Source of the DNA: Escherichia phage vB-EcoP-XT73 | Sequence record: OR757436.1 | Strand: one strand, 5' to 3' | DNA length: 64,000 nt | In this document: one piece after another, positions 44,685 through 51,474 of the stretch | Position numbering within the stretch: the first letter of the stretch is position 1 | Layout of the letters: every line of letters begins with the position of its first letter | Made by a program: the position numbers and the translations under genes | Notes under the pieces: generated by a model | Told to the model about the DNA's origin: nothing | The model's database searches: none | What the model saw: only the letters and a program-made list of their open reading frames with translations

Positions 44685-44981
44685 ATGACTTTAGAAGTAT
44701 ATAAATTCCTTTTTGTAAGCTGTTTAACTATCAGCGTTATAGGATTTATTGTTCTCAGAAACAAAGCAGCAAGCTGGGAGAGAATGTATAGATCTCTAGT
44801 CCGAGTGGATGAGATGTATAATGAGAAAGTTAAAGTAACACTCAACGATCTTATTATGCAAGTTGAAGACAGAAACAAGCGTCTTCAGAATCTCAATCAT
44901 GAAGTGTTGCGCCTTGCTCGTGCTAATGAAGACTTGCGAGTGGCTATTGCTAAGCAGCAGGAGATTAACAGTGAAAGTTAA
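44685..44981 (+). CDS. membrane protein with N-terminal TMD and coiled-coil C-terminus (holin- or spanin-like)
   Basis: One hydrophobic segment then a charged helical region. Confidence 0.4.
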   Translation: MTLEVYKFLFVSCLTISVIGFIVLRNKAASWERMYRSLVRVDEMYNEKVKVTLNDLIMQVEDRNKRLQNLNHEVLRLARANEDLRVAIAKQQEINSES

Positions 44982-45204
44982 TATCAAGCCCGATCATACC
45001 ACACTTCGTTTAAATAACATGAGGCCGGGTGCCCTGTTTCATTTTAAAGGCTCCCTCTATATCAGAACCGGATTAACAACTGACTATCACGTCAATTGTG
45101 TTAACGTGGTTTCTGGAGAGCTTATTGTTATCAGCAAAAACGAAGTCTGCCAAGTGCGCAACGATCTCCACATAACCAACATAGAGGCTAAAGATGAAGA
45201 TTGA
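44971..45204 (+). CDS. small protein, member of a paralogous family
   Basis: GTG start after AGGAG; shares the L..L..GD.F... pattern with the family listed in findings. Confidence 0.4.
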   Translation: MKVNIKPDHTTLRLNNMRPGALFHFKGSLYIRTGLTTDYHVNCVNVVSGELIVISKNEVCQVRNDLHITNIEAKDED

Positions 45205-45448
45205 TCTTAACCTTAAAGCTAAAGAATTGCGTGTGGGTGATTTGAAACTTGGCGATGTGTTCCAAGTTAAGGCAACATGTATTGATTATTACATGATCGT
45301 TCAGTTATATACACCACATGTGTCAGAGACTGATCTTCGGAATGGTTGTGTAGTTCTTAATTTAAGAACCAATCAAGTAATGAAGCTAGATTCAAACTTA
45401 CCTGTTTCAGTTATCCATGATGCAGTAATTACCAACAAAGAAGAGTAA
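45194..45448 (+). CDS. small protein, paralogous family member
   Basis: MKIDLNLKAKELRVGDLKLGDVFQV... pattern. Confidence 0.45.
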   Translation: MKIDLNLKAKELRVGDLKLGDVFQVKATCIDYYMIVQLYTPHVSETDLRNGCVVLNLRTNQVMKLDSNLPVSVIHDAVITNKEE

Positions 45449-45457
45449 CATCGACTT

Positions 45458-45490
45458 ATAGCCCTTGTGTTTATCAGAGGGCTATGTGAG
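45458..45490 (+). other. conserved hairpin TATAGCC-N12-GGCTATGTGAG (copy 1 of 2)
   Basis: Same stem and GTGAG tail as the copy at 51706. Confidence 0.45.
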
Positions 45491-45514
45491 GGTGTTCCTC
45501 ATTAACTTATTAAT

Positions 45515-45565
45515 TCAGGCATATGCCACACCGCTAGGGAGAGCTTGCTCGAACATCCGGTGTTA
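45515..45565 (+). promoter_or_regulatory. conserved intergenic element GTATG..GCTAGGGAG..GAACATCCG (copy a)
   Basis: Similar sequence at 49595-49670 and 51770-51825. Confidence 0.4.
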
Positions 45566-45877
45566 GACTAAAACCTGTTAATTTTCGAAAGACTTTCTGA
45601 TATGTAGGGGTACATATCGGTTTGGGATTCAGGAGACTTCCTAGGGGTAGGGAGTCTTCACCAGTTTGTAGAGTAGGTGGCTCTATTGTAAGAGTCATCC
45701 GCTATATCAACTGGCAATAATGCCTCCACTAACAAAGAGAGATAGGTATGAAAGTATCAACCAAACGTATGAACCGCCCTGAACGTATGGATGCAGTAGC
45801 TAACGGTGCTCTGAAACTGGAAGGCTTCTGGATTCATGCAATGTCAGCCATCCGTAACAAGCAAGGTAATTGGACTT

Positions 45878-46087
45878 ATGCCGGTTAAAACAGCTCATGT
45901 GATAGGTATGCGAGAGATCATTCGCATTGCCTTGATGGAACACACTGATCGAAACATGCAACTAACGCAAATCTCTAAGTGTCTTAATTGCTCAAGAGAT
46001 ATGGCTAAGGAATTAATGTTCGCATTCCTTTATAATGCAGAAGATGGGTTTTTACAAAACCGTCTGCTTGGTTTAAAACAGAAATAA
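45878..46087 (+). CDS. hypothetical protein with HTH-like segment
   Basis: ATG 45878 within track ORF 45836..46087; followed by a terminator. Confidence 0.35.
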   Translation: MPVKTAHVIGMREIIRIALMEHTDRNMQLTQISKCLNCSRDMAKELMFAFLYNAEDGFLQNRLLGLKQK

Positions 46088-46096
46088 ATAAATAAA

Positions 46097-46128
46097 AGGC
46101 TGCCCAATCGGGTGGCCTTTGTTGTTTT
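46097..46128 (+). terminator. intrinsic terminator
   Basis: AGGCTGCCC-AATC-GGGTGGCCT then TTTGTTGTTTT. Confidence 0.55.
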
Positions 46129-46172
46129 AATTAAGGGACAGCTCTTACTTAAACTAACAAGAGGAAGCTCAA

Positions 46173-46349
46173 ATGTCTAAGCAAACAATCAAGAATACAC
46201 AAGCTGGTTACTCTTATGTTAACTCTCCTTGCTGTGGTGCTCGTGTTAATCTGGTTAAAGAAGAGGTTCGTATCGTTCAGCGTGGAGCTACTGTTGTTCG
46301 TTCATGCTGTGTCTGTGGTAATGACATCTTTATTAAAGGTAAAGTATGA
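46173..46349 (+). CDS. small zinc-ribbon protein (58 aa)
   Basis: AAGAGGAAG RBS; CC...CC.C pattern; ATGA overlap with the next gene. Confidence 0.4.
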   Translation: MSKQTIKNTQAGYSYVNSPCCGARVNLVKEEVRIVQRGATVVRSCCVCGNDIFIKGKV

Positions 46350-49594: not shown

Positions 49595-49670
49595 TGACCG
49601 TATGCCCATTGGGTGCATCCCTTTGGTGATGGCTAGGGAGTCCGAGCGTAGGTCCGAACCCTACACCTGT
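49595..49670 (+). promoter_or_regulatory. conserved intergenic element (copy c)
   Basis: CCGTATGCCC...GCTAGGGAG...GAACC; lies within a 650-bp non-coding region with several hairpins. Confidence 0.4.
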
Positions 49671-49703
49671 AACCAAATCAAACAATATCTAATTGGAGGA
49701 TGT

Positions 49704-50015
49704 ATGAAAGCTCGAAGAACTATATGGACTCCGATTCAGATTGAAAATCTTCGGAGACTAATCAAAGAGTACTCTGTTCAAGAGGTTGCTCAGATTATGA
49801 ATGTAACGGAGAATGCAGTTAATACAGCTTGCACTAAGTTTGGTATATCAAGAGCTGCAATCCGAGTCAAGTGGTCTAAAGAAGAAGACCAGTTCCTTAT
49901 CCGTAATGCTGGGTTCATGTCTATTCAGAGAATGGCTGACATGCTCGGTAGAAGCTATGCTGCTGTACAGAACAGGGCATGTATGCACCTTAACATTAGC
50001 CTTAAACTTAAATAG
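49704..50015 (+). CDS. DNA-binding protein with two tandem HTH-like repeats
   Basis: GGAGGA RBS; two about 45-aa repeats (W..E..L...I...S.Q..A.IM....AV). Confidence 0.5.
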   Translation: MKARRTIWTPIQIENLRRLIKEYSVQEVAQIMNVTENAVNTACTKFGISRAAIRVKWSKEEDQFLIRNAGFMSIQRMADMLGRSYAAVQNRACMHLNISLKLK

Positions 50016-50023
50016 GAATCAAT

Positions 50024-50278
50024 ATGAAAGTTAACGAGTTAAATAGAACTACCAAGACTGTGAAACTCCATACTCTGAAGAAGGGTGATACATTCCGTTT
50101 AGAGGAGAATGGACCAATCCACATGGTCTGCACTGCGGCATCTACTAATTGGGTGGAAGTTGCACGAGATCGAGTAGTGTGTGTCAGGCTGGAAGATGGT
50201 AATCTGAGTGGTCCGGTCGAGAGGATTCCTGTTATCCCTGTTAAAGTTGAAGCTAACGTTATTAAGGGTTCTAAATGA
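50024..50278 (+). CDS. small protein, paralogous family member
   Basis: MKVNELNRTTKTVKLHTLKKGDTFRLEE pattern. Confidence 0.45.
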   Translation: MKVNELNRTTKTVKLHTLKKGDTFRLEENGPIHMVCTAASTNWVEVARDRVVCVRLEDGNLSGPVERIPVIPVKVEANVIKGSK

Positions 50279-50520
50279 AGATCATCCCAAAGATTAAAGA
50301 TAACACTGTTTCATTGGCTACAATTATTCCCGGAAACCCTTTCGTAGTTCAAAGAGGAACAGCATCCCCTCAGTATTACATCCGTGTCAATAATGTGTCC
50401 AACAAAATCTCTGTCGAAGAAGGTTGGATTACTATAGTCAATCTTCTTACTGGTGTATTAGGTGTTATGAAAAGTGATGCCCCAGTTGAAGTAATTCGTA
50501 TGTCAGTGGTTCAGGAGTAG
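50275..50520 (+). CDS. small protein, paralogous family member
   Basis: ATGA overlap with the upstream gene; same length class. Confidence 0.45.
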   Translation: MKIIPKIKDNTVSLATIIPGNPFVVQRGTASPQYYIRVNNVSNKISVEEGWITIVNLLTGVLGVMKSDAPVEVIRMSVVQE

Positions 50521-50525
50521 TGTAG

Positions 50526-50768
50526 ATGAGCACAATACATATCAAGGTCCATCACAAAGAAGAAAAGAAACTCTTTGTTAAAGATCTATCAATCGCTGAT
50601 ATCTTCACTTTAAAAGAAGATGATAATCAGGTCATCTATTTGATGATGCCTGTGACTGGAGGGTATCGAAGGGCTGTTTGTTTGGGTACAGGTGTACCTC
50701 GTCCTGTTGCTGATACTCTTGAAGTTGGTGAGAAGTTTAGTAAGGCTGAAATCATCTTAACTCCATAG
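50526..50768 (+). CDS. small protein, paralogous family member
   Basis: ...LFVKDLSIADIFTLKED... pattern. Confidence 0.45.
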   Translation: MSTIHIKVHHKEEKKLFVKDLSIADIFTLKEDDNQVIYLMMPVTGGYRRAVCLGTGVPRPVADTLEVGEKFSKAEIILTP

Positions 50769-50909
50769 GAAAACAAATGAGACGTAAAGCATATTCTTAT
50801 GACGATATGATTAACCAGAAAGGCTTCGGTCAACGACAGCCTGACGGTTCAATTATCTGGTTCGTAAACGGGCAGAAAAAGGTAGCTAAATAAGCCTTCT
50901 TCTCTCCTC

Positions 50910-50927
50910 CTTTTAGTACTATGACGC
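50910..50927 (+). promoter_or_regulatory. conserved 18-bp motif CTTTTAGTACTATGACGC (copy 2 of 2)
   Basis: Identical to 43873-43890; followed by an inverted repeat around an EcoRI site. Confidence 0.4.
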
Positions 50928-50998
50928 CTCTCTGTGGGCGGACCAATTTGCGTAGGGAATTCCCTCTACGCAGCCATAATTTTTAAGGAATTTCCCCT

Positions 50999-51232
50999 AT
51001 GTCTAAAGTAAGCGCAATTGATGCAATCCGTCAACCGTTCCAGTTCCAATCCAAATCAACCCAAACCTTCAGCGAGCCTAAGCAAATTCGCTTGGGTGGC
51101 ACAGAGAAGACTGTATTTGATCTGGCTAAAAACAAGAGCGTTACTGTAGTTGATGGTGGCACTCTGGTTAACGTTTCCCATCGTATCCGCACTGGCAAAA
51201 CTGCCAAAGATCGTGCTAAGAAAGGTGAATAA
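50999..51232 (+). CDS. hypothetical protein
   Basis: AAGGAA RBS. Confidence 0.45.
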   Translation: MSKVSAIDAIRQPFQFQSKSTQTFSEPKQIRLGGTEKTVFDLAKNKSVTVVDGGTLVNVSHRIRTGKTAKDRAKKGE

Positions 51233-51474
51233 TGAAAATAGGGCAACCAGCTAAGGATGTTCTAGCGAAGATTAGTGATATCTCTATTGGGGAGGTTTTC
51301 TCAGCAGAGCACTTTTCAAGTTACTACATGAAAATCCCTGACACTAAAGTAGAGGGTTGCATCACCCCCGCCAACGCAGTTAACCTGAACACAGGGCATT
51401 TGTCTGCATTCAAACCTGATTCACAGGTTACTGAAATCAAAGATGCCTACCTTGCCTTTGGTGGGGATAAATAG
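51232..51474 (+). CDS. small protein, paralogous family member
   Basis: ...ISDISIGEVFSAEH... pattern. Confidence 0.45.
   Translation: MKIGQPAKDVLAKISDISIGEVFSAEHFSSYYMKIPDTKVEGCITPANAVNLNTGHLSAFKPDSQVTEIKDAYLAFGGDK

What the first reader, a model, noticed from the sequence alone, without database searches (positions are those of the whole stretch)
44971..51474. Family of at least eight diverged paralogous small proteins scattered through the early-type region
ORFs at 44971, 45194, 46346, 48384, 50024, 50275, 50526 and 51232 (about 74-85 aa) share a similar layout: a short basic N-terminus, then L..L..GD.F, then a beta-rich region with conserved Y, V and G positions. Repeated duplication and divergence of small early genes is typical of loci under host-driven diversifying selection (host takeover or anti-defense), and none has an assignable function.
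Basis: seen in the sequence. Interest (0 to 1): 0.55.

Follow-up and report, generated by a model that had tools for sequence, protein, structure and literature searches.

The report
Eight paralogous small early phage proteins
The eight small genes are a real family of about 75-residue beta-barrel proteins in the early region of a phiEco32-like coliphage; the family is widespread and unnamed, related phages swap its copies in and out, and its function is still untested.

Summary
The window is a phiEco32-like podophage (Kuravirus). All eight ORFs (73-84 aa, + strand, each with a Shine-Dalgarno-like motif) belong to one family. A leave-one-out HMM ranks each left-out member first of 364 window ORFs (E 4e-9 to 4e-3). 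An HMM built only from distant metagenomic relatives finds exactly these eight (E 2e-18 to 5e-7; next ORF 0.21).

The family has no Pfam, NCBIfam or PDB match, and its PHROGs are all "unknown function". It has 1,418 clusters at 50% identity, including N4 gp21, tandem-repeat proteins and a SprT-protease fusion.

Related phages carry 4-10 copies, in 19 subtypes across six genomes. Whole-gene indels occur, and deeply diverged alleles sit beside near-identical neighbours. Orthologue dN/dS is 0.04-0.45, so diversity comes from cassette exchange, not from point-mutation positive selection.

My best guess (about 0.4) is that these are early-expressed cytoplasmic binder modules, built on a conserved scaffold with two variable loops, for host takeover or anti-defence. 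This is a new member of a known kind, of moderate interest.

The parts
44971..45204 (+). Family member 1 (77 aa, GTG start overlapping the end of the upstream ORF). Orthologue of phi32_115; PHROG 16423.
   Evidence: The XT18 annotation has the same 234-nt CDS.
45194..45448 (+). Family member 2 (84 aa). Orthologue of phi32_114; PHROG 9955. This is the first protein modelled by AlphaFold.
   Evidence: E 4.3e-9; pLDDT 81.4.
45440..45441 (.). Junction where a further family cassette is absent. The 219-nt gene (phi32_113 type, 72 aa) is present in phiEco32, XT18 and Bas90. An AAGTA microhomology lies at the gene ends.
46346..46570 (+). Family member 3 (74 aa). Orthologue of phi32_109; PHROG 10911. 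It is the weakest member by sequence and was the second protein modelled.
   Evidence: E 1e-3; E 1.9e-10; pLDDT 87.5, same strand order.
48384..48605 (+). Family member 4 (73 aa). Orthologue of phi32_104; PHROG 6570. It is found in 71 phage records (the region as a whole matches 173).
   Evidence: (E 2e-8).
50024..50278 (+). Family member 5 (84 aa); PHROG 7832. It is the first gene of a three-gene tandem array that directly follows a D5-like regulator gene.
   Evidence: (E 1.1e-5).
50275..50520 (+). Family member 6 (81 aa). Orthologue of phi32_96; PHROG 7431. Its start overlaps the preceding stop by 4 nt.
   Evidence: (E 3.8e-6).
50526..50768 (+). Family member 7 (80 aa). Orthologue of phi32_95; PHROG 12612. 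It is a divergent member (ADIF in place of GDxF).
   Evidence: E 3.6e-3; E 4.6e-7.
51232..51474 (+). Family member 8 (80 aa); PHROG 12612. The slot is allelic: about 95% orthologues in some Kuraviruses and about 35% identical family members at the same position in others.
   Evidence: (E 1.4e-8).
40128..41515 (+). Context: four sigma70-consensus promoter matches (40128-40155 is a perfect TTGACA-16-TATAAT; also 40581, 41407 and 41487) at the head of the rightward gene cluster that contains the family.
   Evidence: Four early sigma70 promoters at the start of the early cluster are reported for phiEco32 (PMC8948821). These are consensus matches only; function was not shown here.

Best explanation
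The eight ORFs are real, translated paralogues of one unnamed but widespread family of single-domain proteins of about 75 residues. The proteins fold as an SH3-like six-strand beta-barrel. They sit in the host-sigma70-transcribed early gene cluster of a phiEco32-like (Kuravirus) phage.

They behave as accessory cassettes. Related phages carry different numbers and subtypes, whole genes are gained or lost at gene boundaries, and deeply diverged alleles are swapped by recombination. Each allele is nevertheless kept under purifying selection.

The most likely mechanism is inferred, not shown. Each paralogue would be a small soluble cytoplasmic binder made in the first minutes of infection. A rigid conserved core (G-D-x-F turn, YYMK strand, VNL-x-T-G turn, V-x-P-V strand) would present two hypervariable loops and a variable surface that latch onto a different host or host-defence protein. 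A genome would then carry a repertoire of such binders for host takeover or counter-defence.

What is shown: the family is real, the predicted fold is shared, the genes are accessory and exchanged between phages, each allele is under purifying selection, and the genes lie in the gene cluster that is early in phiEco32.

What is inferred: early expression in this phage, cytoplasmic location, binding to proteins, and different targets for different paralogues.
For: - The family is real.
- The pattern is a scaffold plus variable loops. The near-invariant residues are glycines and hydrophobics at fixed spacing. The beta2-beta3 loop varies from 5 to 18 residues and the beta3-beta4 loop from 6 to 40. 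Model confidence is lowest over residues 41-50 of p45194, within the beta3-beta4 loop.
- The genes behave as accessory cassettes. Copy number is 8 in the window, 10 in Bas90, 9 in XT18, 9 in phiEco32, 6 in ECBP2 and 4 in SU7. There are 19 subtypes in these six genomes. An exact gene-length indel lies at 45440/45441. Alleles are 54-71% identical with dS above 0.8, next to neighbours at 98-100% identity. The p48384 type is present in only 71 phage records, against 173 that match the region.
- Selection is purifying, with omega 0.04-0.45.
- The position is early. Sigma70 promoters lie upstream and no gp36-type promoters lie nearby. The literature places the early cluster here (PMC8948821, PMC9965538).
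- The family is mostly acidic (median pI 5.3), which argues against general nucleic-acid binding.
- Gordonclarkvirinae are reported as remarkably resistant to restriction-modification (RM) systems, with no known inhibitor, and only Fun/Z among the defence systems tested affected them (PMC11990801).
- Elsewhere, members sit among small accessory genes of phages and mobile elements.
Against: - There is no experimental or interaction evidence for any member, and no characterised homologue. N4 gp21, PaP3 ORF65 and all other hits are uncharacterised.
- Several polar positions are moderately conserved across the whole family (D/E of GDxF 76%, K/R of YMK about 80%, N of VNL 59%). This could instead mean a common ligand.
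- dN/dS gives no sign of an arms race at the sequence level.
- Coordinates of the models were not available, so core versus surface placement of conserved residues is inferred from the strand pattern only.
Confidence: 0.4

Rival explanations
1. Common-ligand binders. All members bind the same kind of non-protein ligand through the conserved polar residues: RNA or ribosome, as KOW, L2 and EF-P domains do, or a small signalling nucleotide, as phage 'sponge' proteins do. Multiple copies would then give dosage or tuned affinity rather than different targets.
For: - The top structural neighbours are RNA- or ribosome-binding 'translation protein SH3-like' domains.
- The D/E, K/R, N and T positions in the motifs are moderately conserved over about 1,400 clusters.
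- In a chromosomal Bacteroidota protein, five basic copies of the domain are fused to a SprT-like protease. From general knowledge, not tested here, partner domains of SprT-type proteases usually bind nucleic acid.
- In one viral contig, three members flank an RtcB RNA ligase.
- A tRNA-Arg gene and tRNA-like remnants lie inside the window cluster.
Against: - The free-standing phage members are mostly acidic (median pI 5.3, net charge -2). The window copies range from pI 5.5 to 9.4.
- Several window paralogues have lost the conserved polar residues (GALF, GSIF and GNPF in place of GDxF; VRL and VCL in place of VNL).
- A sponge or single-ligand binder would not need 19 subtypes at 20-30% identity.
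- There is no sequence match to KOW, S1, Tad2/DUF2829 or any other Pfam family.
Confidence: 0.2
2. RNA-polymerase or transcription modulators. The barrels act like CarD, Mfd-RID, UvrD-CTD or NusG-KOW domains. They would dock on host RNAP to redirect or anti-terminate early transcription in a phage that depends on host RNAP throughout infection.
For: - Terminator-like hairpins are in excess in the region scanned, both strands counted (24 found against 11.8 +/- 3.4 expected). About 14 are on the + strand and would have to be read through.
- An undefined anti-termination strategy has been proposed for the related phage 7-11 (PMC8948821).
Against: - Mass spectrometry of RNAP from phiEco32-infected cells found only gp36 and gp79 (PMC12276001). 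gp79 is helical and a middle gene, and it is not in this family.
- The structural matches are no better than those to many unrelated SH3-like barrels.
- The family also occurs in N4, which uses its own RNAPs for early and middle transcription.
- A conserved essential target would not fit the accessory, variable gene content.
Confidence: 0.1
3. Expendable filler. The genes are conserved only because they are small, harmless and spread by recombination. Alternatively, the similarity is a composition or chance artefact of short ORFs.
For: - The genes are accessory. Copy number varies and whole copies can be absent with no evident cost.
- No function is known for any homologue.
Against: - Chance similarity is excluded.
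- Purifying selection acts on every orthologue pair measured, with omega 0.04-0.45.
- Shine-Dalgarno-like motifs and translationally coupled starts are present.
- The predicted fold is confident and shared.
- The family persists across very distant phages and in cellular proteins.
Confidence: 0.1

Closest known systems
Escherichia phage phiEco32 early ORFs phi32_95, 96, 97, 98, 104, 109, 113, 114 and 115 (all annotated 'hypothetical protein'), and their orthologues in other Kuravirus and Suseptimavirus phages
   Same: They are direct orthologues or paralogues in the same syntenic early cluster. The DNA is 90-97% identical over most of the region.
   Different: The window lacks the phi32_113, 97 and 98 types. 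It carries the p50024 and p51232 types, which phiEco32 lacks. Several shared slots hold alleles only 54-71% identical.
Bacteriophage N4 gp21 (74 aa, uncharacterised)
   Same: It is a clear family member (HMM E 1.7e-18; Foldseek BFVD hit).
   Different: It is a single copy in a different phage family (Schitoviridae). It lies among the genes that follow the RNAPII genes gp15-16, not in the leftmost gene block. It is nearly invariant among N4-type isolates.
SH3-like beta-barrel domains of the KOW / translation-protein-SH3 / Tudor type (ribosomal L2 C-domain, EF-P and eIF5A domain I, Spt5/NusG KOW, CarD and UvrD/PcrA RNAP-interacting domains, HspQ)
   Different: There is no detectable sequence relationship and no Pfam match for any of 136 members. 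Identity in the structural alignments is 6-24%. The family has its own motifs (GDxF, YYMK, VNLxTG) and is mostly acidic. No shared function can be assumed.
Multigene families of small early or accessory phage proteins used for host takeover and anti-defence (general phenomenon; my own knowledge, not tested here)
   Same: The products are small, sit in the early region, occur in several diverged copies, vary in content between close relatives and have no enzymatic motifs.
   Different: No member of this family has a demonstrated target or phenotype. The family is also found as tandem repeats inside large proteins and fused to a cellular SprT-like protease.

Membership tests
This unnamed family (PHROGs 16423, 9955, 10911, 6570, 7832, 7431, 12612, 8365 and others; includes N4 gp21) | A significant match of each ORF to a family profile that was not trained on it. 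| tested here: met
   Leave-one-out E is 4e-9 to 4e-3, with rank 1 of 364. The distant-relative HMM gives E 2e-18 to 5e-7. Each ORF has its own PHROG at E 1e-26 to 1e-42, with cross-hits to sister PHROGs.
This unnamed family | The motif layout at fixed spacing: MKI start, L-x2-G-[DE]-x-F, Y-[MIL]-K, V-N-L-x2-G, then 10 residues to a conserved V. | tested here: met
   The spacing is invariant (2 residues) or nearly so (10 in seven members, 11 in p46346). Individual polar residues are substituted in some paralogues.
This unnamed family | A common fold. | tested here: met
   The AF2 models of p45194 and p46346 have the same six strands plus a short helical turn after strand 1. Both are predictions that used overlapping family alignments; there is no experimental structure.
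SH3-like barrel, KOW / translation-protein SH3 / Tudor superfamilies | A 5-6-strand SH3-like barrel topology. | tested here: met
SH3-like barrel, KOW / translation-protein SH3 / Tudor superfamilies | Sequence membership: a Pfam KOW, Tudor, EFP_N, Ribosomal_L2_C or CarD_TRCF_RID profile match. | tested here: not met
   None of the eight ORFs, or of the 136 family members, matches any such Pfam model. The family profile finds no PDB chain at E up to 5.
RNAP-interacting Tudor-like domains (CarD, Mfd-RID, UvrD/PcrA C-terminal domain) | Binding to the RNAP beta subunit. | not testable with these tools
phiEco32 gp79 (RNAP-binding transcription factor) | A helical small protein with a hydrophobic groove that binds the beta' N-terminus; a middle gene. 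| not tested
   No sequence comparison was run. The paper describes at least an N-terminal alpha-helix (alpha1) and a middle-gene position (PMC12276001, PMC8948821). The family here is predicted to be all-beta and lies in the early cluster.
Known small anti-defence families present in Pfam (for example Tad2/DUF2829) | A profile match. | tested here: not met
   There are no Pfam or NCBIfam hits at E up to 0.1-1. Dedicated anti-defence databases were not available.
SH3b cell-wall-binding domains of endolysins | A Pfam SH3_3, SH3_5 or similar match, association with a lytic enzyme, and export. | tested here: not met
   There is no Pfam match. The proteins are free-standing, sit in the early cluster, and the sequences show no hydrophobic N-terminal segment. 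One BFVD homologue labelled 'Endolysin' is a 77-aa protein. I regard that label as a likely mis-annotation, but did not check it.

The most novel reading that the evidence does not exclude
The family is a combinatorial, recombination-shuffled repertoire of SH3-like binder cassettes. Each subtype would neutralise a different host defence or host-takeover target. The particular set a Kuravirus carries would then help set its plating host range and would explain the unusually broad resistance of Gordonclarkvirinae to restriction and other defence systems. The same scaffold would be re-used across many unrelated phages (N4 gp21, PaP3 ORF65 and others).
Probability: 0.2. Interest if true: 0.7.

Novelty: new member of a known kind. 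Interest (0 to 1): 0.42.

Why it matters
If the binder-repertoire reading is right, these genes are a ready-made panel of candidates for anti-defence or host-takeover screens. There are eight here and at least 19 subtypes in close relatives. They sit in a phage group noted for resistance to bacterial immunity whose early genes are almost all 'hypothetical'.

Independently of function, the analysis has three concrete results:
- It joins about ten separate PHROGs and N4 gp21 into one superfamily of at least 1,400 clusters at 50% identity.
- It shows that this superfamily has no Pfam or PDB representation.
- It gives the superfamily a confident predicted fold and a motif signature, which is enough to define a new domain family.

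It also shows how the locus diversifies: by exchange and gain or loss of whole cassettes under purifying selection, not by rapid point substitution.

Tried and rejected
- I first took the window for an N4-like phage, from memory of the names of the hits. The record taxonomy corrected this to Kuravirus (phiEco32-like).
- phiEco32 gp79 as a possible family member: rejected. The literature describes it as helical and a middle gene.
- PaP3 gp70.1 (an RpoS binder) as a characterised relative: rejected. It is a 131-aa protein with no link to the family. Only PaP3 ORF65 is a structural hit.
- The svsR sRNA paper on Kuraviruses was not relevant.
- The 'polyvalent proteins' paper does not mention this domain.
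- The Pavlova 2012 and Savalia 2008 papers are not held. The temporal class of the phiEco32 orthologues therefore rests on secondary descriptions.
- HHalign between narrow orthologue-group profiles gave strong links for only some pairs (E 5e-7 to 1e-4) and weak links for p46346 and p50526. Those two were settled with the broad independent HMM.
- tblastn with the HMM consensus found nothing in phages or plasmids. I suspect the low-complexity filter masked the K- and E-rich consensus, but did not check.
- tblastn of P0354 against plasmids found no match.
- A degenerate DNA pattern scan of IMG/VR returned 105 loci, of which only 10 hold true members.
- Profile searches of PDB, Pfam and NCBIfam found nothing.
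- Rfam found only the tRNA-Arg gene in 43-53 kb.

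
Full report
**Identity of the window.** The region is 90-97% identical to the early region of phiEco32-like podophages. The best match is Escherichia phage vB-EcoP-XT18, at 96.8% over 92% of the query. The record taxonomy places these phages in Gordonclarkvirinae, genus Kuravirus.

The window's + strand is the reverse of the phiEco32 record. The finding covers the equivalents of phi32_95 to phi32_115.

In phiEco32 the far-right cluster is the early class. Host sigma70 RNAP transcribes it from four promoters at the head of the cluster. Middle and late genes use the phage sigma factor gp36 (PMC8948821, PMC9965538, PMC12276001).

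In the window, four sigma70-consensus matches lie on the + strand at 40128 (a perfect 12/12 match), 40581, 41407 and 41487. The gp36-type motif TAATGTATA occurs only at 3453, 3525, 12798 and 27859, never between 40 and 54 kb. The family genes therefore sit 3.5-11 kb downstream of these putative early promoters. Early expression is shown for phiEco32 and inferred here.

**Check of the observation.** The eight ORFs are present as described. All are on the + strand, encode 73-84 aa and have Shine-Dalgarno-like motifs. Several starts overlap the preceding stop, which suggests translational coupling.

Pairwise identity is only 19-29% and single-sequence phmmer E-values are mostly 0.02-1. Even so, each member's best non-self hits among all 364 ORFs of 40 aa or more in the window are other members.

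Four further tests settle the question:
- In a leave-one-out test, the HMM of the other seven ranks the omitted member first every time. E is 4.3e-9 to 3.6e-3, and the best non-member scores 0.06 or worse.
- PHROG profiles, built independently of this window, place each ORF in its own PHROG (E 1e-26 to 1e-42) and cross-hit the sisters' PHROGs. For example, p51232 hits phrog_6570 at 3.7e-9 and p50024 hits phrog_8365 at 2.2e-9.
- An HMM made only from 123 metagenomic relatives, each less than 40% identical to any window member, recovers exactly the eight at E 2.4e-18 to 4.6e-7. The next ORF scores 0.21, and 4,000 shuffled members reach at most 11.9 bits.
- A six-frame scan of all stop-to-stop fragments of 20 aa or more finds the same eight and no pseudogene remnants.

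p46346 and p50526 are the most divergent members.

**The family beyond this window.** The eight-sequence profile was searched against 1.84 billion representative proteins. It finds 1,418 clusters at E up to 1e-3.

Most hits are 67-90 aa and cover the full length. Some proteins hold 2-6 copies in tandem, for example P0141 (834 aa), P0145 (515 aa) and P0215 (387 aa). One chromosomal Bacteroidota protein (P0208) fuses a SprT-like metalloprotease to five basic copies.

The family consensus is MKI..K...tv.f.dL..GDvF...YYMKT...(A/C)VNL.TG.l..f....V.pV.a.lvI. F is invariant. The two G, two V and one L positions are 87-99% conserved.

Spacing is fixed everywhere except in two loops. The beta2-beta3 loop spans 5-18 residues and the beta3-beta4 loop spans 6-40. 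In the window copies they span 6-12 and 6-19 residues.

None of the 136 aligned members matches any Pfam-A model, and NCBIfam has nothing. Neither the eight-member nor the 136-member family profile finds a significant PDB chain: the best E is 0.81 for the first, and the second finds none at E up to 5.

In the BFVD library of viral models, the structural and sequence relatives are all uncharacterised. They include N4 gp21, Pseudomonas PaP3 ORF65, and proteins of Vibrio, Klebsiella, Morganella, Dickeya, Proteus, Serratia and Erwinia phages. N4 gp21 is also a clear HMM hit, at E 1.7e-18.

Distant members sit among small accessory genes of phage-like or integrative elements. In one viral contig, three copies flank an RtcB RNA ligase gene.

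**Fold.** The AlphaFold2 model of p45194, built with the 136-sequence alignment, has mean pLDDT 81.4. It has six strands and a short helical turn after strand 1, and confidence is lowest in the beta3-beta4 loop.

The weakest member, p46346, was modelled with a 90-sequence alignment. Its mean pLDDT is 87.5 and it has the same order of elements.

The protein is therefore a small SH3-like barrel. The matches are generic and do not identify a function. The two models share much of their input alignment, so the shared fold is supported but not independently proven.

**How the locus evolves.** With the broad HMM, the copy number per early region is as follows:

| Phage | Copies |
|---|---|
| window | 8 |
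| Bas90 | 10 |
| XT18 | 9 |
| phiEco32 | 9 |
| ECBP2 | 6 |
| SU7 | 4 |
| N4 | 1 |

Single-linkage clustering at 45% identity gives 19 subtypes in the six Gordonclarkvirinae genomes.

Relative to phiEco32, XT18 and Bas90, the window lacks one whole cassette. This is the 219-nt phi32_113-type gene. The junction is at 45440/45441, where both gene ends share AAGTA. Bas90 has two further cassettes at that spot.

Nei-Gojobori estimates for orthologue pairs give dN/dS of 0.04-0.32 for family members within Kuravirus and up to 0.45 against Suseptimavirus. Selection on each allele is therefore purifying.

Several family slots nevertheless hold deeply diverged alleles. Against phiEco32, p44971 is 69% identical, p45194 71%, p50275 68% and p50526 54%, with dS of 0.8-1.8. 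Flanking non-family genes are 98-100% identical, with dS of 0.1-0.3.

The p51232 slot holds about 95% orthologues in some phages and about 35% identical family members in others. The p48384 type occurs in 71 phage records, whereas the region as a whole matches 173.

Diversity therefore comes from gain, loss and recombinational exchange of old, diverged cassettes. It does not come from recent duplication or from fast point substitution.

**Interpretation.** The near-invariant positions are turn glycines and hydrophobic residues at fixed spacing. The variation lies in two loops and in the remaining surface. Each allele is under purifying selection, and gene content is accessory and shuffled. The genes lie in the early cluster of a phage group reported to be unusually resistant to restriction and most tested defence systems, with no known inhibitor (PMC11990801).

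The most economical reading is a repertoire of small soluble binder modules made early in infection. Each would recognise a different host or defence component. I put this at about 0.4.

The free-standing members are mostly acidic (median pI 5.3). This weighs against a general nucleic-acid-binding role. However, the moderately conserved polar motif residues, the ribosomal and KOW-like structural neighbours and the basic SprT-fused repeats keep a common-ligand model alive (about 0.2).

A CarD/UvrD-like RNAP-docking role is attractive for a phage that depends on host RNAP. It is weakened by the report that only gp36 and gp79 co-purify with RNAP from phiEco32-infected cells (PMC12276001), and by the family's presence in N4 (about 0.1).

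Chance similarity is excluded. A 'harmless filler' status is unlikely, given the purifying selection and the breadth of the family (about 0.1).

**Comparison with what is known, and novelty.** The genes are already deposited as 'hypothetical proteins' and are split over about ten PHROGs of unknown function. I found no paper that describes them as one family, though the two primary phiEco32 papers were not available.

What is new here:
- these PHROGs and N4 gp21 are joined into one large superfamily that is not in Pfam;
- a confident SH3-like fold prediction and a motif signature are available;
- the cassette-like dynamics in Gordonclarkvirinae are described.

Paralogous small early genes and SH3-like binder domains are both familiar, so I rate this as a new member of a known kind, with moderate interest (0.42). 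The interest would rise markedly if individual cassettes were shown to neutralise specific defence systems.

Noticed in passing
window 49465-49540 (inside the ORF-free stretch 49056-49600): A ~75-nt element is 88-98% identical to sequences in many N4-like phages (N4, KP8, G7C-type), where some records call it 'tRNA-OTHER' or 'tRNA-Undet'. It contains a T-arm-like hairpin (CCAGG-TGGAATC-CCTGG). ARAGORN and Rfam do not call it, and its folding energy is ordinary (z -0.2). It may be a decayed tRNA gene shared between unrelated phage families.
   Followed up: partly
window 54626-60911: A cluster downstream of the family encodes a COOH-NH2 ligase, an amidoligase, a glutamine amidotransferase-like protein and a RimK-like (ribosomal protein S6 glutaminyl transferase) protein. 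It looks like a peptide- or protein-modification module in the same rightward gene cluster.
   Followed up: no
window 45440/45441: An exact gene-length (219 nt) absence of a ninth family cassette that phiEco32, XT18 and Bas90 carry. AAGTA microhomology lies at the cassette ends.
   Followed up: yes
window 36400-53700: Terminator-like hairpins are about twice as frequent as in shuffled sequence, both strands counted (24 against 11.8 +/- 3.4). About 14 lie on the + strand inside the early cluster, for example at 42453, 44021, 46095 and 50948. This raises the question of how early transcription reads through them.
   Followed up: no
window 3453, 3525, 12798, 27859: Four exact matches to the phiEco32 gp36-dependent promoter consensus TAATGTATA, against 0.7 expected. 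They probably mark middle and late promoters of this phage.
   Followed up: no
window 46567-46818 and 46826-47059: Two adjacent small ORFs share a weak similarity (28% over 36 aa, pairwise E 4e-4...RY[IL]A.D..G.V......KP...). They may be a second, unrelated paralogue pair in the early cluster. The neighbouring pair of Cys-rich ORFs (47062 and 47235) shows no detectable similarity.
   Followed up: partly
window 49602-50015: The ORF directly upstream of the three-gene tandem array matches PHROG 323, 'transcriptional regulator, D5-like' (E 5.6e-28). Relatives annotate a shorter start, equivalent to 49704.
   Followed up: no
L026 3748-5547 (IMG/VR contig 3300029988_000043): In an unrelated 9.5-kb viral contig, three family members flank a 373-aa ORF that I read as an RtcB-type RNA ligase from its sequence motifs. 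No profile search was run.
   Followed up: partly
L012 3583-5019 and L013 5001-6437 (P0208): A chromosomal gene, with SusC/SusD and LpxK genes in the neighbourhood, encodes a SprT-like metalloprotease followed by five basic tandem copies of the same domain. The fold is therefore not restricted to phages.
   Followed up: partly
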